Under the pieces are notes generated by a model, which made no database searches, was not told the origin of the DNA, and saw nothing but the letters and a program-made list of their open reading frames with translations. DNA of 64,000 bases, taken from contig DATION010000002.1 in assembly GCA_035473115.1 (NCBI GenBank), positions 169,374 through 233,373 of the forward strand, written 5' to 3'. The position numbers and the translations under genes are program-made. The DNA is from Candidatus Udaeobacter sp. (GTDB lineage Bacteria > Patescibacteriota > Patescibacteriia > Magasanikbacterales > GWA2-37-8). Shown here one piece after another: positions 838 through 51,767 of this stretch. How positions within the stretch are numbered: the first letter of the stretch is position 1; each line of letters opens with the position of its first letter.

Positions 838-1521
838 CTACTGGGGCGTTCCTCCAGTCTTCGGAGCGACTGAGAAAGGAAAGAGGAGCCTTGAGGTTTT
901 GTTACCGGAACCGCCGATGGTCACGGCCGTTCCGGTGTCGTTTTTCCTTCCAGTGAAGAGATCGGTTTCCGTAACCACATGGACAGTCAGACGGCGATCA
1001 GTCGCTGCGAGCTGAGCTGCCAACTTGGTGTTGGCGTACCTCAGACCAGCGATGTCTGCAGTCGTTTTCTCCGCGCCGGCCTTTAGCTCGGCGACGTCTG
1101 CTGTTGCCTGGTCGGCGCTTGCCTTCACCTCGGCGACGTCTGCTGTTGCCTGCTCAGCCGCGGCTTGAGCCTTGGCAGCATCGGCGACACCTTGGTCAGC
1201 GATCACTTTGGCGGCCGCGGCATCGGCGACGCCTTGGTTGGCCGTGGTTTGGGCGGCCGCGGCGGCAGTGGTAGCGGCCGCGGCGTTCGCGGTAGCCTTG
1301 GCAGCTTCGGCCTTGGCATTGCTGGCCATCGTCTGAGCTTCAACGATTTGCGCATTGAGCCCATTGTACGCCGTTGCAGCGATCAAGATGAGAATAGCCG
1401 CTCCGGCGACAACACCTGCGATCCAGACGATGACCTTCTTGTGATCGGAGGAGCCTCGAACCTCCATGGTCTGCGACGGATCCGGGCTGGACGAGAGATT
1501 CGGGTCAGGGTTTGGCGACAT
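838..1521 (-). CDS. membrane-anchored Ala-rich coiled-coil repeat protein, hypothetical
   Basis: One TM helix followed by 14-residue periodic A/D/Q-rich repeats. AAGGAG lies 9 nt upstream of the ATG at 1521; the ORF could extend to TTG at 1542. High GC. Confidence 0.5.
   Translation of the reverse strand: MSPNPDPNLSSSPDPSQTMEVRGSSDHKKVIVWIAGVVAGAAILILIAATAYNGLNAQIVEAQTMASNAKAEAAKATANAAAATTAAAAAQTTANQGVADAAAAKVIADQGVADAAKAQAAAEQATADVAEVKASADQATADVAELKAGAEKTTADIAGLRYANTKLAAQLAATDRRLTVHVVTETDLFTGRKNDTGTAVTIGGSGNKTSRLLFPFSVAPKTGGTPQ
1088..1261. repeat. 42-nt (14-codon) tandem repeats inside the coiled-coil gene
   Basis: Units at 1088-1111 and 1130-1153 are near-identical, as are units at 1178-1219 and 1220-1261. 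Confidence 0.7.
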
Positions 1522-9158: not shown

Positions 9159-9195
9159 TGTCATCCCGAGCGAGGTCTTAACCGACGAGGGATCT
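9159..9195. repeat. TGTCATCC...GGATCT dispersed repeat, copy A
   Basis: tgtcatcccgagcgagg...cgacgagggatct. Shares termini with the copies at 11612, 35585 and 37330. Confidence 0.6.
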
Positions 9196-9347
9196 ACACA
9201 TTTTAGATAATAATAGCTTATTTTTTAACAAAAAGCAAACCGCCTAAAAATAACAGTGCCTTCGGGTTGTGAAGCCGAAGGCGGAACGAACACAAGCAGC
9301 CGTGGACTGTGGCGAACGCTGTGCGGGAGCAGTGATTGATGGAGTTA

Positions 9348-10170: not shown

Positions 10171-10617
10171 ATGATTACCAATCTTGCCGAAAATAAAAAG
10201 GCGCTATTTGACTATGAAATCCTGGAAAAATACGAGGCTGGTTTAGTGCTGTCCGGACAAGAAGTAAAATCAGCTAAAGCTGGTCAAATTAACCTAAAAG
10301 GGTCATATGTAACTTTTCATGATGGCAAAGCTTTTGTTTTGAATATGCATATCACCAAATATAAGCCGGCCGGTCCTCTCCCCGACTATGATCCAACCCG
10401 AACTCGCCAATTACTTCTACACAAAAAAGAAATAGCTTATTTACAGGGAAAATCGCTGGAAAGGGGCTTGACAATAGTGCCTTTAAAAGTGTATACTAAA
10501 CAACGCTTGATAAAGATTGAGGTCGCAATTGCCAAAGGACGCAAGAATTACGACAAAAGAGAAGTCATTAAGACCAGAGAATTAAAAAGAGAACTTGATC
10601 GAGCAAGAAAAAATTAG
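10171..10617 (+). CDS. smpB: SsrA-binding protein SmpB
   Basis: N-terminus KKALFDYEILEKYEAGLVLSGQEVKS is typical SmpB, 148 aa. Confidence 0.9.
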   Translation: MITNLAENKKALFDYEILEKYEAGLVLSGQEVKSAKAGQINLKGSYVTFHDGKAFVLNMHITKYKPAGPLPDYDPTRTRQLLLHKKEIAYLQGKSLERGLTIVPLKVYTKQRLIKIEVAIAKGRKNYDKREVIKTRELKRELDRARKN

Positions 10618-11009
10618 GGGGTGCCGGGCCTTCGACAGAAGCTCCTGGCTACACTGGCATACCGAGGCGGCTCGCAGCCTTGTAAAAAACAGAGCAATAT
10701 AATAAGTGCAAACTTATTTACAAAAGCTAAAGTTGCTGTAGCAAATTTATTTGCTGTTAGCGCTTTCGCTCCGGTAATGGCTTAATACCCAATACCCATC
10801 GCGCCAATGATACTCTGTAATTGGTTAGCGGTGTCACTAACAGAGAGTAGTTCTGCCGCAGTGTCGTCTGCGACAAAATGAAATTCCAACGACTCGTCAA
10901 TGCAATTTTCGTCCCCTTCTATTGCGTTGACTAAAAAACAAGGGACACTAAGTATGTAGAAGGTTTAGTCAAAGTTATCTACACGCGAGTTCAACTCTCG
11001 CCACCTCCA
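10617..11009 (+). ncRNA. ssrA: tmRNA (ssrA)
   Basis: The 5' GGGGGUG pairs with the 3' CACCUCC to give an acceptor stem with a G3:U70 pair. A T-arm gcgag-ttcaact-ctcgc precedes it. It lies directly after smpB. The candidate tag ORF ends ...FAPVMA-TAA at 10783-10785. Confidence 0.7.
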
Positions 11010-11045
11010 CGACGCTGAGCGTCGTAATAGGAACGCTTAGCGTTC
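11010..11045. promoter_or_regulatory. twin palindromes ACGCTGAGCGT / ACGCTTAGCGT spaced 21 bp centre to centre
   Basis: cgACGCTGAGCGTcg-taatag-gaACGCTTAGCGTtc, immediately 3' of tmRNA and 5' of infC. The same pair occurs at 50369-50404. Confidence 0.6.
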
Positions 11046-13231: not shown

Positions 13232-13305
13232 GGGTCGGTAGTTCAACTGGTTAGAGCACTGCCCTGTCACGGCAGAAGTTGCGGGTTCGAGTCCCGTCCG
13301 ACCCG
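13232..13305 (+). tRNA. tRNA-Asp (anticodon GTC)
   Basis: Cloverleaf with 7-bp acceptor gggtcgg/ccgaccc, anticodon loop ctGTCac and T-loop ttcgagt. No encoded CCA. Confidence 0.85.
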
Positions 13306-13311
13306 CTCACA

Positions 13312-35584: not shown

Positions 35585-35635
35585 TGTCATCCCGAGCGAA
35601 CCAGCTCTTCGCGAAGGGTGGGTGACGAGGGATCT
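35585..35635. repeat. TGTCATCC...GGATCT dispersed repeat, copy C
   Basis: tgtcatcccgagcgaaccagctcttcgcgaagggtgggtgacgagggatct, right after the peptidase stop. Confidence 0.6.
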
Positions 35636-35664
35636 ATACCTATAAAATAAAATTCAAAATAAAC

Positions 35665-35735
35665 TCCGAGGTGGTCTAATGGTAGGACAGCAGACTCTGA
35701 ATCTGCTTATCTTGGTTCGAATCCAAGCCTCGGAA
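35665..35735 (+). tRNA. tRNA-Gln (anticodon CTG)
   Basis: Acceptor tccgagg/cctcgga, anticodon loop ctCTGaa, T-loop ttcgaat. Confidence 0.8.
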
Positions 35736-35885
35736 CAAAATCTACCATCTAAAACAACTACCACTAAATACTACCCATTGACTAACGGGTTGTTTTATGA
35801 TATATAAATACCAGTTTGTAGCATTTTTTGTGATACAAACCAATCCTAGGCCCAAGCGAGCCTACCCAAAAAAGGAGCAATCGCC

Positions 35886-36485: not shown

Positions 36486-37280
36486 TTACTTAATTTTTCT
36501 CCCCTCCAAAAATAAAAATAAAGGAAATTCTTTTCGTGCTTTATCTTCCGCCGCAAAACGTGGCCCTCTAGTTGGCTCACGGTGCGAAATCCATTCTTCC
36601 AGCTTGGCTACCGCAAAACCATTTTTGCGCAGCATTTTAAAATACCATTGCAATGATCGGTGAAACGAAACTGTTTTTTCTGATTGTTTCTTGCCCGGAT
36701 TCATATCTATTTCTGTTTGGAATTCCGATAAATACGCATCCATACGGCGATACTGAATTTTGGCTTGCTCATCCCACTGCCAACTGGAAACTTTGGGCGC
36801 GCGAAAGGCTGGGTGGTTTAAAACCAAAAATATACTCCCCTTTTCTTTTAAGACTCTGGCGCACTCGGCTAATACGCCATCCACATTTTTTATATTCTGC
36901 AAAGCTAAAATTATTGTAATAGAATCTACGGATTTATCGGCACAAAAATTAATTTTATCCGCTGGCGATACGTGGTATTCAATATTTTTTGATTTAGCGA
37001 AATCATGCCGCGTAACGTCATTTGAAACGCGGCGGCTCTTGGCGATTTGGATAAGTTCCGGAGAAATATCCGAAGCAATAACTTTGGCGCCGCTTTGCGC
37101 AAAAATACGGCTAAAAAATCCTTGGCCGCAAGCCAAATCTAAGACTATCTGGTTTTTGTCCAAAGTCATTGAACGGATTAAATTTGGCAAAATAACTTTC
37201 TGCTGAAAAGAATCATCGTCTTTCTCTAGCATGCTATCATACCAATTGGCTACTTTGCCCCAAGAAGTTTGTTTTTTCAT
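36486..37280 (-). CDS. class I SAM-dependent methyltransferase
   Basis: Motif I VLDLACGQGFFS with an acidic-loop D after beta2. Carries the in-frame insert ...TRHDFAKSK.... Confidence 0.8.
   Translation of the reverse strand: MKKQTSWGKVANWYDSMLEKDDDSFQQKVILPNLIRSMTLDKNQIVLDLACGQGFFSRIFAQSGAKVIASDISPELIQIAKSRRVSNDVTRHDFAKSKNIEYHVSPADKINFCADKSVDSITIILALQNIKNVDGVLAECARVLKEKGSIFLVLNHPAFRAPKVSSWQWDEQAKIQYRRMDAYLSEFQTEIDMNPGKKQSEKTVSFHRSLQWYFKMLRKNGFAVAKLEEWISHREPTRGPRFAAEDKARKEFPLFLFLEGRKIK
36985..37033. repeat. in-frame palindromic mini-element, copy 1 (inside methyltransferase gene)
   Basis: tttgatttagcgaaatcatg followed by hairpin gccgcgt-aacgtcatttga-acgcggc. Same element in secA (44056-44106) and at 51657-51697. 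Confidence 0.7.
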
Positions 37281-43327: not shown

Positions 43328-46129
43328 TTAAGCTCCATGGCATTTTTTGAATTTTTTTCCGCTTCCGCATGAACACAAATCATTGCGGCCGATAACTTTT
43401 CCTGATTCATCTGTTTTTTTACCGGTAGCAATATGAGTTTCTTCACTACTGCTAGTTTTGGCAGCGCCGCTGAAGTTTAGCGCGTTACTATTCATTACCG
43501 ATGGCGCCATTTGAATCCCCAGATTAACTTTATAAATCAGATAAACAACTTCTTTTTGAATAAAATTAATTAGTTCATTAAACATGCGGAAAGTTTCTTT
43601 TTTGTATTCTACCAGTGGATCATGCTGGCCATAACCGCGCAGTCCTATACCGGTACGCAAATAATCTACGGCCACCAAATGTTCTACCCACAAATTATCT
43701 ATAGCGCGCAACAAAACCTGTTTTTCTATTTCTAGCAACATCATTGGATCAGGCACAGTCTTTTCTAGTAAAGTTTCATATTTTTTATTAGCCAATTCCA
43801 CCAAATAGTCGATTATTTTATTGCGCAATTCAATATCATCTAACTTTTCTCCTCTGGCTCCGGAAGCTAATTCTTCAATTGTTTTTCTTTCTTCATCGGC
43901 TAATGGGAAAATTGTAGTTATGGTCTGAGTTATTTCTTTGACGTTCCATTCTTTTCTATCTTCGGTATTGGTATGAAACGAGATTACCTGTTCTATTTCT
44001 TGCTCAATCATATCCAAAATCATTTCCCGCATGGTTCTGGAACCTTCCGGCAAAGTTTTATTTGATTTAGCGAAATCATGCTGGGTAGCGTCCATTGAAA
44101 CCCAGCGCTTTTCCATTTCAAACGCGTTTAAAATTTCTCGGCGCTTGCCATAGATAACTTCACGGTGACGATTTAATACATCATCGTATTCCAACAAATG
44201 TTTACGGGTATCAAAATGAATGCCTTCCACTTTTTTCTGGGCGGATTCTATAATACGAGTAATCATCCCCTGCTCTATCGGCATATCATCGGGAACTTTT
44301 AAAGTTTCCATTACTTTGCGGATACGATCACCGGCAAAAATACGCATTAAATCGTCTTGGGTAGAAAGATAAAATTGCGATTCACCCGGATCACCCTGAC
44401 GGCCACTGCGGCCGCGCAGCTGATTATCGATACGGCGACTTTCGTGGCGTTCAGTACCAATAACATGCAGACCACCGGCAGCGCGCACTTTTTCGGCTTC
44501 AGCCGGATCTGGCGGATTGCCGCCTAAAATAATATCCACACCGCGGCCAGCCATATTGGTTGCTAAAGTAACTGCGCCAGCGCGGCCAGCTTGAGCAATA
44601 ATCTCACCTTCACGTTCATGATTTTTGGCGTTTAAAATTTCATGCTTGATTCCTTCTCTTTCCAAATACAAACTAAGCTCTTCGTTTTTATCAACGGCAA
44701 TTGTACCAATCAAAACCGGCTGGCCTTTGACCTGTAATTCTTTTACTTTCAAAGCAATCGCTTTGTATTTTGCTTCTTCAGTTTTATAAATTCTGTCCGG
44801 ATAATTTATTCTTTGATTTTTTCTGTTTGGCGGAATAACTACTACTTCTAATTTATAAATTTTACCAAATTCTTCCGCTTCGGTAACCGCGGTACCAGTC
44901 ATGCCGGATAATTTTTCGTAAAGACGGAAATAATTTTGGAAGGTAACCGTAGCCATAGTCTGGCTTTCTTGCTGAATCTTTACGCCCTCTTGAGCTTCTA
45001 TAGCCTGGTGCAGACCTTCGCTGTAGCGGCGGCCAGGCATTTTGCGGCCGGTAAATTCATCAACGATTATTACTTCGCCATTTTCTACGATATAATCGCG
45101 ATCTTTTTTAAATAAAGCATAAGCGCGCAAAGCTTGTTCTAAGTGATGAACGGTTTTAATGCCGCCTTCGGCATAAATATTGTCTATGCCCAACATTTTT
45201 TCCATTTTGGTTATACCAACTTCGGTAAGCGTGGAGGAACGCATTTTTTCATCAACATTATAATCTTCATTTTCTTTTAATTTTTTTACCAAATCGGCAA
45301 ACTGATAATACATGTCAGCCGCTTCTTCGGCTGGAGCAGAAATAATTAGCGGGGTGCGAGCTTCATCAATTAAAATCGAATCAACTTCATCAACAATCGC
45401 AAAATAAAACGGCCGTTGAGACATCTCGGCTTTATTTTGCACCATATTGTCGCGCAAATAATCAAAACCAAATTCATTATTGGTGCCGTAAGTAATATCA
45501 CAAGCATAGGCTTGCTGACGAGTACAAGCTTCCAAATATTCTGTTTCCACTTTAAACATGCCTTTGGCATCACGCTCTTTATCTGGCGCGCTGCCTTCGG
45601 ATAAATCTTCTTCCGGCTTAATTGATTTTTGGGCGTTATATTTAAATGAAACTAATTGTTGTTGGATAATACCAACGCTTAGTCCAAGAGCGTCATAAAT
45701 TTGACTCATCCAAACTGCATCGCGTTTAGCCAAGTAATCGTTGACAGTGACCACGTGCACGCCTTTGCCGGCTAAAGCATTTAAATATATTGGCAAAGTT
45801 CCCACCAAAGTTTTACCTTCACCGGTGCCCATTTCGGCAATACTGCCGCGATGCAAAACAACACCACCGATTAGCTGCACATCAAAATGACGCATGCCAG
45901 TCAAACGCTTGGAAGTTTCGCGGACAACCGCAAAGGCTTCGGGTAAAATATCGTCTAAAGTTTCACCATTAGCCAAACGGCCTTTAAATTCATCAGTTTT
46001 GCTGCGCAAATCAGCCAAAGTTAATTTGACCATTTCCGCTTCTAATGAATTTATTTTTTCAATTATCGGCTGGATACTCTTGACCACTTTGGCGTTGGGG
46101 TCTCCAAAAATTTTGGTTAAAAATGACAT
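43328..46129 (-). CDS. secA: preprotein translocase ATPase SecA
   Basis: MGTGEGKTLV Walker A, DEAD-like motor domains, C-terminal Zn finger CSCGSGKKFKKCHG. Contains the in-frame insert ...TQHDFAKSNK.... Confidence 0.95.
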   Translation of the reverse strand: MSFLTKIFGDPNAKVVKSIQPIIEKINSLEAEMVKLTLADLRSKTDEFKGRLANGETLDDILPEAFAVVRETSKRLTGMRHFDVQLIGGVVLHRGSIAEMGTGEGKTLVGTLPIYLNALAGKGVHVVTVNDYLAKRDAVWMSQIYDALGLSVGIIQQQLVSFKYNAQKSIKPEEDLSEGSAPDKERDAKGMFKVETEYLEACTRQQAYACDITYGTNNEFGFDYLRDNMVQNKAEMSQRPFYFAIVDEVDSILIDEARTPLIISAPAEEAADMYYQFADLVKKLKENEDYNVDEKMRSSTLTEVGITKMEKMLGIDNIYAEGGIKTVHHLEQALRAYALFKKDRDYIVENGEVIIVDEFTGRKMPGRRYSEGLHQAIEAQEGVKIQQESQTMATVTFQNYFRLYEKLSGMTGTAVTEAEEFGKIYKLEVVVIPPNRKNQRINYPDRIYKTEEAKYKAIALKVKELQVKGQPVLIGTIAVDKNEELSLYLEREGIKHEILNAKNHEREGEIIAQAGRAGAVTLATNMAGRGVDIILGGNPPDPAEAEKVRAAGGLHVIGTERHESRRIDNQLRGRSGRQGDPGESQFYLSTQDDLMRIFAGDRIRKVMETLKVPDDMPIEQGMITRIIESAQKKVEGIHFDTRKHLLEYDDVLNRHREVIYGKRREILNAFEMEKRWVSMDATQHDFAKSNKTLPEGSRTMREMILDMIEQEIEQVISFHTNTEDRKEWNVKEITQTITTIFPLADEERKTIEELASGARGEKLDDIELRNKIIDYLVELANKKYETLLEKTVPDPMMLLEIEKQVLLRAIDNLWVEHLVAVDYLRTGIGLRGYGQHDPLVEYKKETFRMFNELINFIQKEVVYLIYKVNLGIQMAPSVMNSNALNFSGAAKTSSSEETHIATGKKTDESGKVIGRNDLCSCGSGKKFKKCHGA
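44056..44106. repeat. in-frame palindromic mini-element, copy 2 (inside secA)
   Basis: tttgatttagcgaaatcatg followed by hairpin gctgggt-agcgtccattga-acccagc. The stem differs from copy 1 by two compensatory base-pair changes. Confidence 0.7.
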
Positions 46130-51398: not shown

Positions 51399-51653
51399 TT
51401 AGGAAAGGTGTTTGGAAACAAGTTTAGTCATTTCAAACATGTTTACTGTTGCCTTACCGCCAAATACTACTTTTAAAGCAGCATCAGCGTTGATATTGCG
51501 CTTATTTTTTTGATCTTGAAGATTTTTACCCTTGATGTAAGCCCATAATTTTTTTACCACTTCAGAACGTGGCATAGGACCTGGACCGACGACAGCGGCT
51601 AATTCGGCGCTGACGTTCATCGGCTTCATAAACGCGGAGTTTGCTTTTGGCAT
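51399..51653 (-). CDS. SWIB/MDM2 domain protein
   Basis: LAAVVGPGPMPRSEVVKKLWAYIKGKNLQDQKNKRNINAD...MFEMTKLVSKHL is a SWIB signature. Confidence 0.8.
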   Translation of the reverse strand: MPKANSAFMKPMNVSAELAAVVGPGPMPRSEVVKKLWAYIKGKNLQDQKNKRNINADAALKVVFGGKATVNMFEMTKLVSKHLS

Positions 51654-51656
51654 AAC

Positions 51657-51697
51657 TTGTTTTATTTAGCGAAATCATGTCCTGATTAAACTAGGAC
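51657..51697. repeat. palindromic mini-element, copy 3 (intergenic, immediately 5' of SWIB start)
   Basis: gttttatttagcgaaatcatg followed by hairpin gtcct-gattaaact-aggac. Confidence 0.55.
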
Positions 51698-51767
51698 GCT
51701 GACTTCTATTAGTAAATATAGTAATTTAAGTATAGCAGCTATTCTAGAATAGCGCAACTGACCAAGC

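What the first reader, a model, noticed from the sequence alone, without database searches (positions are those of the whole stretch)
44056..44106. In-frame palindromic mini-element inside secA (shared with a methyltransferase gene and an intergenic leader)
The 20-nt string tttgatttagcgaaatcatg followed by a 7-bp-stem hairpin occurs in secA (44061-44106) and in the methyltransferase gene (36988-37033), both in frame on the coding strand. It adds an RxVSxDxTxHDFAKSxK peptide to two unrelated proteins. The two hairpin stems (gccgcgt/acgcggc versus gctgggt/acccagc) differ by two compensatory base-pair substitutions while the loop is conserved. This argues that a nucleic-acid structure is selected, not the peptide. 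The conserved tail is itself a palindrome (TGATTT-AGCG-AAATCA). The pattern parallels Rickettsia palindromic elements, which insert in frame into ORFs. It would be a new instance in a different lineage.
Basis: seen in the sequence. Interest (0 to 1): 0.8.

Follow-up and report, generated by a model that had tools for sequence, protein, structure and literature searches.

The report
Mobile two-hairpin mini-element in Patescibacteria
A 45-base, two-hairpin DNA element has inserted in frame into secA and a methyltransferase gene here. It belongs to an apparently undescribed repeat family found across many Patescibacteria (CPR) lineages, which mostly sits directly in front of start codons and also sits in frame in at least 13 housekeeping proteins.

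Summary

**In the window**
- There are exactly three copies, all on the minus (coding) strand.
- Two are intact 45-nt in-frame insertions, in secA and in a class I methyltransferase gene.
- One is a decayed copy 6 nt upstream of a SWIB-domain gene.
- The closest SecA orthologs (92% identical) lack exactly these 15 codons. The empty site is an A7 tract and there is no target-site duplication.

**In public collections**
- Scans of genomes and metagenomes recovered about 95 non-redundant copies, all in Patescibacteria.
- None of 110 pattern hits in viral contigs carries the hairpin.
- The architecture is a 7-bp stem that covaries heavily, a conserved 13–14-nt loop (…GGACG…), and the tail CATGATTTCGCTAAATCAA, which forms a second covarying hairpin.
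- Context of the copies:
  - 46% end −1 to +11 nt from a same-strand ATG (rpsL, rpsS, rplP, rpmE, rpoC, secE, dnaJ and others).
  - 22% lie inside ORFs, always sense and always in the "HDFAKS" frame.
  - About 10% sit just before terminators.

**Prior description**
- No Rfam family matched and no paper in the searched library contains the sequence.

**Interpretation**
- Best reading: a mobile palindromic mini-element, like the Rickettsia palindromic elements (RPE) or REP sequences, whose nucleic-acid structure is under selection.
- How it moves, and whether it acts at the RNA level, remain unresolved.

The parts
44064..44108 (-). 45-nt element inserted in frame in secA. On the coding strand it reads GC + stem GCTGGGT + 13-nt loop TTCAATGGACGCT + stem ACCCAGC + ATGATTTCGCTAAATC, and it encodes RWVSMDATQHDFAKS.
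   Evidence: The 45-nt gap is exact against the empty sites in L001, L064 and L065. The covariance model scores it 67.4 bits. Fifteen residues are absent from the closest orthologs.
44080..44106 (-). Helix 1 of the secA copy: arms 44080-44086 and 44100-44106, loop 44087-44099.
   Evidence: Fold prediction. Covariation across the family.
44063..44078 (-). Helix 2, the tail palindrome TGATTT-CGCT-AAATCA on the coding strand. Its outermost pair uses the first A of the flanking A-tract.
   Evidence: Fold prediction. The sixth (loop-closing) pair of helix 2 is T-A in 47 copies and C-G in 13, with none unpaired; the first (outermost) pair shows U-A to C-G in 2 copies.
36991..37035 (-). 45-nt element in frame in the class I SAM methyltransferase gene. 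It encodes RRVSNDVTRHDFAKS, with stem GCCGCGT/ACGCGGC.
   Evidence: Covariance model score 70.1 bits. Absent from the nearest orthologs, and present as a diverged orthologous copy in L066. It maps to a low-confidence loop between helix 74-82 and strand 100-104 of the AlphaFold model.
51658..51699 (-). Decayed third copy. The hairpin is short (GTCCT...AGGAC) and lacks the GGACG loop. The tail CATGATTTCGCTAAATAAAA ends 6 nt before the ATG of the SWIB gene.
   Evidence: Covariance model score 30.8 bits. An orthologous, further decayed copy sits at the same place in L065.
43328..46129 (-). secA, the host gene (933 aa).
36486..37280 (-). Class I SAM-dependent methyltransferase, the host gene (264 aa).
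51399..51653 (-). SWIB-domain gene (84 aa) led by the third copy.
   Evidence: PF02201 on the ortholog in L065.

Best explanation
**Shown**
- This is a dispersed repeat of about 45 nt that appears specific to Patescibacteria.
- On the gene-sense strand it consists of:
  - two semi-conserved bases;
  - a 7-bp GC-rich stem whose sequence is free but whose pairing is kept;
  - a conserved 13-14-nt loop (YTNAANGGACGNT);
  - the tail CATGATTTCGCTAAATC(AA), which forms a second 6-bp hairpin.
- It has entered genomes as a discrete unit. At the one site with empty-site DNA (secA) it sits in an A7 tract with no target-site duplication, and across the family both flanks are A-rich. Its orientation is almost always the sense orientation of the surrounding gene.
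- It can decay afterwards.
- Copies inside genes survive only as the 45-nt length class and only in the hydrophilic reading frame (...S.DG.RHDFAKS...), at loops or indel-prone sites of the protein in the cases examined.

**Inferred**
- It is a non-autonomous mobile element mobilised in trans by hairpin recognition. The most likely route is as single-stranded DNA, in the manner of IS200/IS605/RAYT-type "peel and paste" transposition, which leaves no duplication and gives strand bias.
- Loop and tail are conserved because they are the recognition determinants.
- The element is tolerated so close to start codons and between cistrons for two reasons. It folds completely on itself, and the one genome examined for this (the window's) hardly uses Shine-Dalgarno (SD) sequences.
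For: **Insertion polymorphism**
- The secA copy is absent from seven closer relatives. The gap is an exact 45 nt inside GAAAAAAAT and no bases are duplicated.
- The methyltransferase copy is present in two lineages and absent from closer ones.
- The SWIB copy is decayed in the window and more so in L065.

**Family size and range**
- 55 of 62 genome hits carry the hairpin; their record titles are Patescibacteria groups (Paceibacterota, Nomura-, Magasanik-, Zambryski-, Taylorbacteria, Minisyncoccia), "Saccharibacteria", a few "bacterium" entries, or apparently mislabelled "Gammaproteobacteria". The 7 remaining, non-CPR hits lack it.
- At least 45 of 120 metagenome hits carry the hairpin. None of 110 viral hits does.

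**Structure**
- Cells paired: 98.8% and 97.6% in the two alignments. No shuffle of 500 reached the observed values, and sliding the partner column drops pairing to 24-45%.
- Stems differ between copies within one genome.

**Context (96 copies)**
- 44 lie next to an ATG.
- 22 were classed as inside sense ORFs, of which 21 are genuine. The other (L126) is an ATG-adjacent copy with an open upstream frame.
- All 21 genuine in-ORF copies are in one frame and have the 13-nt loop, against 48 of 75 non-ORF copies (Fisher p = 0.0006).

**Flanks**
- A-rich on both sides.

**Nested and tandem copies**
- Seen in several loci.

**Host proteins**
- SecA, methyltransferase, TrmD, TatD, UvrD, FtsK, RecA, Mur ligase, PGI, ClpB, CofD, PfkB and Wzy.

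**Shine-Dalgarno usage**
- Only 7 of 43 long genes in the window have an SD-like motif.
Against: - No mobilising enzyme was identified. tblastn with IS200, IS608 and RAYT sequences found nothing in 575 kb around copies. The queries were recalled from memory and the sampling is partial.
- Near-identical loop and tail across Patescibacteria groups that carry different candidate-phylum names is unusual for a purely selfish element. It fits a conserved host partner better.
- The very tight placement at start codons (13 copies at 0 nt) and the almost exclusive sense orientation could reflect an RNA function rather than target choice.
- Stems differ by several compensatory pairs within one genome. 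That suggests long residence under selection at each locus rather than recent bursts.
- G·T versus A·C mismatch counts (11 versus 19) give no indication of which strand or which molecule folds.
Confidence: 0.55

Rival explanations
1. The element is primarily a functional RNA module. It would act as a self-contained structured leader or intercistronic spacer that a conserved Patescibacterial factor recognises through the loop and tail. Candidate factors are the ribosome, an RNA-binding protein or an RNase. The module would set translation initiation or mRNA stability at the abutting AUG. Mobility would only be how it spreads, and copies inside ORFs and in 3' UTRs would be collateral.
For: - 44 of 96 copies end -1 to +11 nt from a genuine start codon of a same-strand gene. 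These include rpsL, rpsS (three genomes), rplP, rpmE, rpoC (two genomes), secE and dnaJ.
- Orientation is almost always sense.
- The pattern of variable stem, conserved loop and conserved tail is the classic signature of a recognised structured RNA.
- Copies persist at orthologous sites across species.
- Some copies follow a sigma-70-like promoter placed so that transcription would start at the first base of the hairpin: L025, L035 and L050 (read by eye).
- About 9 copies are followed directly by a terminator, as in a small RNA or a 3' UTR.
Against: - 22% of copies are inside ORFs, where no leader function is possible, yet they keep the structure.
- In the unbiased comparison of the window's three copies with relatives, one is recent, one is retained and one is decaying. 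That looks like turnover.
- G·U pairs are not enriched over A·C (11 versus 19), as would be expected for a sense-strand RNA under selection.
- Spacing to the ATG varies from -1 to +11.
- About half of the ATG-adjacent copies in the genome-collection set (roughly 17 of 34) fill an operon-internal gap, so there is no common transcript architecture.
- No expression data are available.
Confidence: 0.3
2. The element acts at the DNA level as a binding or recombination site. The near-palindromic tail TGATTT-N4-AAATCA would bind a dimeric protein, for example a site-specific recombinase or a nucleoid or segregation factor. The hairpin would extrude as a cruciform. Strand bias would then follow replication rather than transcription.
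For: - The tail is a 6+6 palindrome, and its half-sites change together: T-A to C-G in 13 copies with no single changes.
- G·T is not favoured over A·C.
- Copies occur in genes, between genes and before terminators alike.
Against: - The centre of the palindrome (CGCT) and the 13-nt loop are asymmetric and conserved on one strand only.
- Stem covariation with free sequence is not expected for recognition of double-stranded DNA.
- Alignment to the E. coli dif consensus, recalled from memory, matched only the variable stem.
- This reading does not explain how a 45-nt unit gets into an A-tract inside secA.
Confidence: 0.08
3. The shared segment is a protein module: a peptide motif (...S.DG.RHDFAKS...) selected for a function in the host proteins.
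For: The same reading frame is used in all 21 in-ORF copies.
Against: - 77% of copies are non-coding.
- The peptide changes to HDSVES or HDSAES while base pairing is preserved.
- The 13 host proteins are functionally unrelated.
- In the methyltransferase model the segment is a low-confidence surface loop, with pLDDT below 50 at residues 86-88 and 90-95.
- The frame bias is explained by a stop codon in one sense frame and a hydrophobic peptide (AALQWTVRGMISLNQ) in the other.
Confidence: 0.02

Closest known systems
Rickettsia palindromic elements (RPE; Ogata et al. 2000, as summarised in PMC10969869)
   Same: - Palindromic repeats inserted in frame into many unrelated housekeeping genes.
- One conserved peptide per family.
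- Also found between genes.
- No known transposase.
- The insertion sites examined are compatible with protein fold.
   Different: - RPEs are about 100-150 bp and confined to Rickettsia. This element is 45 nt and spread across Patescibacteria.
- It is not a simple palindrome. It is a hairpin with a conserved loop plus a separate conserved tail hairpin.
- Its commonest location is directly abutting start codons.
- Sequence similarity to RPEs was not tested.
REP / REPIN and CGTC-tagged REPs (PMC3733652, PMC3116915)
   Same: - Short GC-rich hairpins dispersed through the genome.
- Occasionally found inside genes.
- Thought to move as single-stranded hairpins.
- CGTC REPs also lack a dedicated transposase.
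   Different: - REPs have 4-5-nt loops, a fixed terminal GTAG or CGTC tag, mostly head-to-head dimers and hundreds of copies.
- Here the loop is 13-14 nt and conserved, and there is a 19-nt conserved tail.
- CGTC is present in only 20 of 95 copies, where it forms part of the covarying stem.
- Copies are almost all single.
- Estimated density is roughly 15-50 copies per Mb.
MITEs (for example Correia/NEMIS, ERIC, Coxiella QMITE; PMC10969869, PMC5896051)
   Same: - Small non-autonomous dispersed repeats.
- They can fuse in frame with ORFs and can alter expression of neighbouring genes.
   Different: - MITEs have terminal inverted repeats and target-site duplications and are usually over 100 bp.
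- This element has neither feature.
IS200/IS605-family ends and their miniature derivatives (author's own knowledge)
   Same: - Recognition of a sub-terminal hairpin.
- Insertion without duplication next to a short specific sequence.
- Strong strand bias.
- Precise excision is possible.
   Different: - Those elements have two different hairpin ends and a Y1 transposase.
- Here there is one unit of 45 nt, and no Y1 transposase was found in 575 kb.
Very small dispersed repeats of cyanobacteria (SDR; Elhai et al. 2008, author's own knowledge; cited in PMC3116915 and PMC2884548)
   Same: - Mobile repeats a few tens of nucleotides long that form hairpins.
- No target-site duplication.
- Found inside conserved sequences and nested within each other.
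   Different: - Different phylum and different sequence.
- The cyanobacterial repeats are 21-27 nt.
- No start-codon association has been reported for them.
- Not compared directly here.

Membership tests
Rickettsia palindromic elements (RPE) | In-frame insertion of one repeat family into many unrelated ORFs, giving a conserved peptide | tested here: met
   21 in-ORF copies in at least 13 protein families, all in the HDFAKS frame.
Rickettsia palindromic elements (RPE) | Length of about 100-150 bp, membership of RPE-1 to RPE-10, Rickettsia lineage | tested here: not met
   The unit is 45 nt. Every hairpin-bearing copy whose record title names a clade with confidence lies in Patescibacteria. RPE size is taken from PMC10969869. 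Sequence comparison with RPEs was not done.
REP / REPIN (GTAG or CGTC tagged) | Invariant terminal tetranucleotide GTAG or CGTC | tested here: not met
   The four bases at the 5' end are CGCC in 23 copies, CGTC in 20, GGCC in 13 and GGTC in 11, out of 95. The T/C position covaries with its 3' partner.
REP / REPIN (GTAG or CGTC tagged) | Simple imperfect palindrome of 20-40 bp with a short (4-5 nt) loop, mostly arranged as dimers | tested here: not met
   The loop is 13-16 nt and conserved, and a 19-nt tail follows. Copies are almost all single.
REP / REPIN (GTAG or CGTC tagged) | Association with a RAYT (Y1 transposase) gene | tested here: inconclusive
   tblastn with IS200, IS608 and RAYT sequences gave no hit in the window plus 66 loci (575 kb). 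Whole genomes were not searched and the queries were recalled from memory.
MITE | Terminal inverted repeats and a target-site duplication | tested here: not met
   At the secA site, A4 + 45 nt + A3 in the filled allele corresponds to A7 in the empty allele, so nothing is duplicated. The ends GCG... and ...AAATC are not inverted repeats.
IS200/IS605-type single-strand transposition | No duplication, fixed orientation relative to a short target, hairpin recognition | tested here: inconclusive
   Met: no duplication, A-rich flanks, covarying hairpin and sense bias. Missing: no transposase was found and only one hairpin end is present.
Any Rfam family | Match to a curated covariance model | tested here: not met
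   Nothing at the element in the window at gathering thresholds. Nothing in L013, L060 or L007 at E up to 10.
Intrinsic terminator or sigma-70 promoter | Short loop plus U-tract, or -35/-10 hexamers at the correct spacing to the transcription start | tested here: not met
   Read directly from the sequence. The loop is 13-14 nt and no U-tract follows. The best -10-like hexamer (CTAAAT) lies 3 nt from the ATG in the commonest arrangement.

The most novel reading that the evidence does not exclude
The element could be a mobile "portable leader" shared across many Patescibacteria lineages. In this reading a 45-nt two-hairpin RNA cassette docks on the Patescibacterial ribosome or on a conserved RNA-binding protein. 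It would drive or regulate Shine-Dalgarno-independent initiation at the abutting AUG of highly expressed genes (ribosomal proteins, RpoC, SecE, DnaJ), and so define a post-transcriptional regulon that spreads by transposition. Copies inside ORFs and in 3' UTRs would be collateral insertions that selection keeps folded.
Probability: 0.25. Interest if true: 0.85.

Novelty: new variant of a known kind. Interest (0 to 1): 0.72.

Why it matters
- **A new case of coding palindromes.** Patescibacteria have tiny, streamlined genomes, yet they carry a conserved 45-nt structured insert in essential genes such as secA, recA, ftsK, clpB and trmD. Until now Rickettsia was the main example of this behaviour, so this gives a second, independent and much broader system for studying how selfish or regulatory hairpins shape proteins.
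- **A candidate cis-element for uncultivated organisms.** The element abuts the start codons of ribosomal-protein, rpoC, secE and dnaJ genes, and the one genome checked here largely lacks Shine-Dalgarno sequences. It is therefore a concrete, testable candidate for translation or mRNA-stability control in organisms that cannot be cultured.
- **Practical consequences.**
  - It can inflate and mis-align protein families, for example through the "HDFAKS" segments.
  - It marks indel hot spots.
  - It offers a sequence tag that, in these scans, was found only in contigs attributable to Patescibacteria.

Tried and rejected
- **Peptide search for HDFAKS-bearing proteins.**
  - A concatenated three-frame profile gave only 5 weak hits.
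- **Y1 transposases near copies.** None found.
- **Viral origin.** 110 pattern hits in IMG/VR and none carries the hairpin.
- **Rfam.** No family matches.
- **Literature.** No paper holds the sequence or the peptide, and none links RPE-, REP- or MITE-like elements with Patescibacteria.
- **Promoter readings.** Sigma-70, sigma-54 and phage-type promoters were all rejected on spacing, read by eye.
- **CsrA site.** Rejected because GGA is not invariant in the loop. GACG is the conserved core, present in 83 of 95 copies.
- **dif/Xer site.** Only the variable stem matched the E. coli dif sequence recalled from memory.
- **Loop-to-tail pseudoknot and pairing of the 5' CGTC with the loop GACG.** No covariation supports either.
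- **G·U versus A·C asymmetry, to decide which strand folds.** The counts were 11 versus 19, which is uninformative.
- **Complementarity to 16S rRNA.** No 16S gene is present in any held locus.
Full report
**1. Checking the observation**

The 20-mer TTTGATTTAGCGAAATCATG lies at 36988 and 44061 exactly, and at 51660 with one mismatch. No set of 100 dinucleotide-preserving shuffles gave three matches. The two long copies share 42 of 50 nt.

The genes concerned are all on the minus strand:
- secA, 43328-46129, 933 aa;
- a class I SAM methyltransferase, 36486-37280, 264 aa;
- a SWIB-domain gene, 51399-51653.

On the coding strand each copy therefore reads as a hairpin followed by CATGATTTCGCTAAATCAAA.
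- The stems GCCGCGT/ACGCGGC and GCTGGGT/ACCCAGC differ at two pairs, and both differences are compensated.
- The peptides are RRVSNDVTRHDFAKSK and RWVSMDATQHDFAKSN.
- The third copy sits 6 nt upstream of the SWIB start codon. It has a shorter, different hairpin.

**2. It is an insertion**

The window comes from a Patescibacteria (CPR) genome close to Magasanikbacteria. The identical SecA is on a 234-kb NCBI contig that is labelled "Udaeobacter", while all relatives are CPR.

*secA*
- SecA orthologs at 82-92% identity read ...NAFENEK|NKTVPEG..., lacking exactly RWVSMDATQHDFAKS.
- At DNA level the relative L001 has GAAAATGAAAAAAATAAAACT. The window has GAAATGGAAAA + 45 nt + AAATAAAACT.
- The A7 tract is therefore split into 4 + 3 bases with nothing duplicated.
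- Solved SecA structures have no counterpart. In B. subtilis SecA the alignment jumps from residue 607 back to residue 607 across query residues 50-76, which is the junction between the scaffold helix and the wing domain.

*Methyltransferase*
- The nearest orthologs (251 aa) also lack the segment.
- One more distant relative (P0125, locus L066) carries a diverged copy at the same site.
- In an AlphaFold model the segment is a low-confidence loop between helix 74-82 and strand 100-104.

*SWIB gene*
- The copy upstream of this gene is present, but more decayed, at the orthologous place in L065.

**3. The family**

*Scans*
- A scan of one genome per species with CATGATTTCGCTAAATMAA gave 62 loci.
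  - 55 carry the hairpin immediately upstream. Their record titles name Paceibacterota, Nomura-, Magasanik-, Zambryski- and Taylorbacteria, Minisyncoccia, "Saccharibacteria" and a few "bacterium" entries, plus four "Gammaproteobacteria" entries that look mislabelled (L059 is near-identical to the Magasanikbacteria locus L013).
  - The 7 clearly non-CPR hits lack it.
At least 45 have the hairpin.
- The same pattern in IMG/VR gave 110 hits, none with the hairpin.

*Density*
- A covariance model (R1) finds exactly three copies in the window.
- It finds 6 to 8 further copies in each set of about 0.4 Mb of flanking sequence.
- That corresponds to roughly 15-50 copies per Mb.

*Structure*
- Helix 1 is 96-98% paired. 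Six of its 7 pairs show compensatory changes; for example, pair 2 is U-A in 28 copies and C-G in 24.
- No shuffle of 500 reached the observed values, and sliding the partner column drops pairing to 24-45%.
- In helix 2, the sixth (loop-closing) pair is U-A in 47 copies and C-G in 13, with none unpaired. The first (outermost) pair also swaps U-A to C-G.
- Among hairpin-bearing hits in the metagenome scan, no T·G or C·A single mutants occur at the variable helix-2 position.
- The loop is conserved: GACG is present in 83 of 95 copies. Its length is 13 nt in 67 copies, 14 nt in 22 and 15-16 nt in 6.

*Prior description*
- No Rfam family matches.
- No paper in the library holds the sequence or the peptide.

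**4. Where copies sit**

Of 96 non-redundant hairpin-bearing copies:

| Context | Copies |
|---|---|
| End -1 to +11 nt before the ATG of a same-strand ORF | 44 (13 at exactly 0 nt) |
| Classed as inside a long sense ORF | 22 |
| Other | 30 |

- **Start-adjacent genes** include S12 (two genomes), S19 (three genomes), L16, L31, RpoC (two genomes), SecE, DnaJ, MurG, RsmH, TatD, RNase H, a pilin and PPDK.
- **Operon-internal copies.** In the genome-collection set, roughly 17 of the 34 start-adjacent copies fill the whole gap between two co-directional genes. In several the upstream stop codon lies in the element's loop.
- **"Other" copies.** About 9 are followed at once by a terminator hairpin. 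Two clearly lie antisense to their neighbours (L023 and L064:9110).
- **In-ORF copies.**
  - 21 are in the frame that reads ...HDFAKS..., or HDSVES/HDSAES in the C-G tail variant. The one exception (L126) is a start-adjacent copy that was mis-scored.
  - All 21 have the 13-nt loop, that is the 45-nt unit, against 48 of 75 elsewhere (Fisher p = 0.0006).
  - One sense frame contains TGA. The other encodes the hydrophobic peptide AALQWTVRGMISLNQ.
- **Host proteins**: SecA, methyltransferase, TrmD (3), TatD (3), UvrD (2), FtsK (2), RecA, Mur ligase, PGI, ClpB (2), CofD, PfkB and a Wzy-type ligase.
- **Flanks.** Both are A-rich: A is 0.47-0.67 at positions -3 to -6 and 0.79 at +3, against a background of 0.30.

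**5. Is the structure or the peptide selected?**

- In the orthologous methyltransferase pair (window versus L066) and the ClpB pair (L106 versus L145), the tail differs by GATTT...AAATC versus GATTC...GAATC.
- That change alters the peptide (F to S, K to E) but keeps the base pair.
- The FtsK copies L036 and L089 are nearly identical over the element (one difference noted, in the loop), while the flanking protein sequence is largely different.
- Stems differ by several compensated pairs between copies within one genome.
- Selection therefore acts on the nucleic-acid fold.
- G·T versus A·C counts (11 versus 19) do not indicate which strand or molecule folds.

**6. How it most likely works**

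*Shown*
- A discrete 45-nt unit enters the genome. At the one documented empty site the target is an A-tract and nothing is duplicated; family-wide, the flanks are A-rich.
- Its orientation is almost always sense.
- It then either persists with its fold intact or decays.

*Inferred*
- It is mobilised in trans through hairpin recognition, most simply as single-stranded DNA in the manner of IS200/IS605/RAYT elements.
- Because A-runs lie mainly on the sense strand (Lys codons, the region just before ATG, and the 5' side of terminators), a fixed orientation relative to the A-tract would by itself give three of the observations: the sense bias, the three contexts and, after selection, the single reading frame.
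- Tolerance at start codons is plausible because only 7 of 43 long genes in the window have an SD-like motif and many look leaderless. The element also folds entirely on itself.

*Weaknesses*
- No enzyme was found.
- The conservation of loop and tail across Patescibacteria groups that carry different candidate-phylum names, together with the precision of start-codon abutment, is explained at least as well by an RNA function. I rate that rival at 0.3.

**7. Comparison with known systems, and novelty**

- In behaviour the element resembles the RPEs most closely, and REPs and CGTC-REPs next.
- It fails their defining features: size, terminal tag, short loop and dimer organisation.
- It also fails the defining features of MITEs, which are terminal inverted repeats and a target-site duplication.
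- I file it as a new variant of the known kind "in-frame or intergenic palindromic mini-repeat".
- Its new properties are the two-hairpin architecture, A-tract insertion without duplication, distribution across many Patescibacteria lineages and dominant placement next to start codons.

**8. Wider context**

- The same SecA junction carries other, unrelated palindromic in-frame inserts in other CPR genomes. L297 has a 144-nt region that folds at -47.9 kcal/mol, and L298 carries a different one.
- The methyltransferase loop likewise carries unrelated inserts in more distant homologs.
- In-frame hairpin insertion therefore appears to be a general feature of CPR proteomes.

Noticed in passing
Relatives of window 44056-44110: L297 (about 2540-2690) and L298: The same SecA junction (scaffold helix to wing domain) carries other, unrelated palindromic in-frame inserts in other CPR genomes. 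One example is ...GTCATTCCCGCCGAAAGCGGGAATCCAG...CTGGATTCC...GGGAATGAC, where 144 nt fold at -47.9 kcal/mol. The site is an insertion hot spot for several hairpin families.
   Followed up: partly
Homologs of window 36991-37035 (P0156-P0175): More distant methyltransferase homologs carry unrelated inserts in the same loop between the second helix and third strand of the fold. Examples are HLPGEQ.RHL.GAQ, RNN.AMKQFNN and ...SRYARNDK.... These look like translated repeats.
   Followed up: no
L048/L098, L094, L133, L107, L132, L117: Tandem and nested arrangements of the element occur.
- Two copies lie 73 nt apart.
- An extra TTTCGYTAAATCAA follows the tail.
- A full copy sits inside the loop or the 3' arm of another, with 5-11 nt of the outer copy missing.
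   Followed up: partly
L071, L129, L172, L178, L183, L128: A sub-family has the tail CATGATTTTGCTAAATCAA directly before an ATG. It is preceded by ...ATGCCCAG instead of the canonical hairpin.
   Followed up: no
Whole window (43 long ORFs): Only 7 of 43 long genes have an SD-like motif. Many have a -10-like box 6-10 nt before the ATG, in the style of leaderless genes.
   Followed up: partly
Window 1-64000, source record: NCBI names the source MAG "Candidatus Udaeobacter sp." (Verrucomicrobia). All SecA and methyltransferase relatives are Patescibacteria, close to Magasanikbacteria, so the taxonomic label is probably wrong.
   Followed up: partly
Window 9184-9210 and 35624-35650: A 27-nt direct repeat, GACGAGGGATCTAYAC..., occurs twice. 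The second copy is about 15 nt upstream of tRNA-Gln (35665-35736). It may be a shared promoter or processing signal.
   Followed up: no
Window 1049-1174 and 1253-1294: GC-rich tandem repeats (three units of 42 nt, and 21-nt units) lie inside the ORF at 838-1521 on the minus strand.
   Followed up: no
Window 10617-11012, 13232-13306: tmRNA gene (123.9 bits) and tRNA-Asp. Both look ordinary.
   Followed up: no
L043 (UvrD-like ORF): Besides the HDFAKS insert, this helicase contains other odd low-complexity inserts, such as ...NGLAGKGTQRTEDLNKRISGSVPSNREVDSAFARSLSVPAGTALPLG... and ...ASRRRDDASRGGPHQRQNES.... These may be further translated repeats.
   Followed up: no
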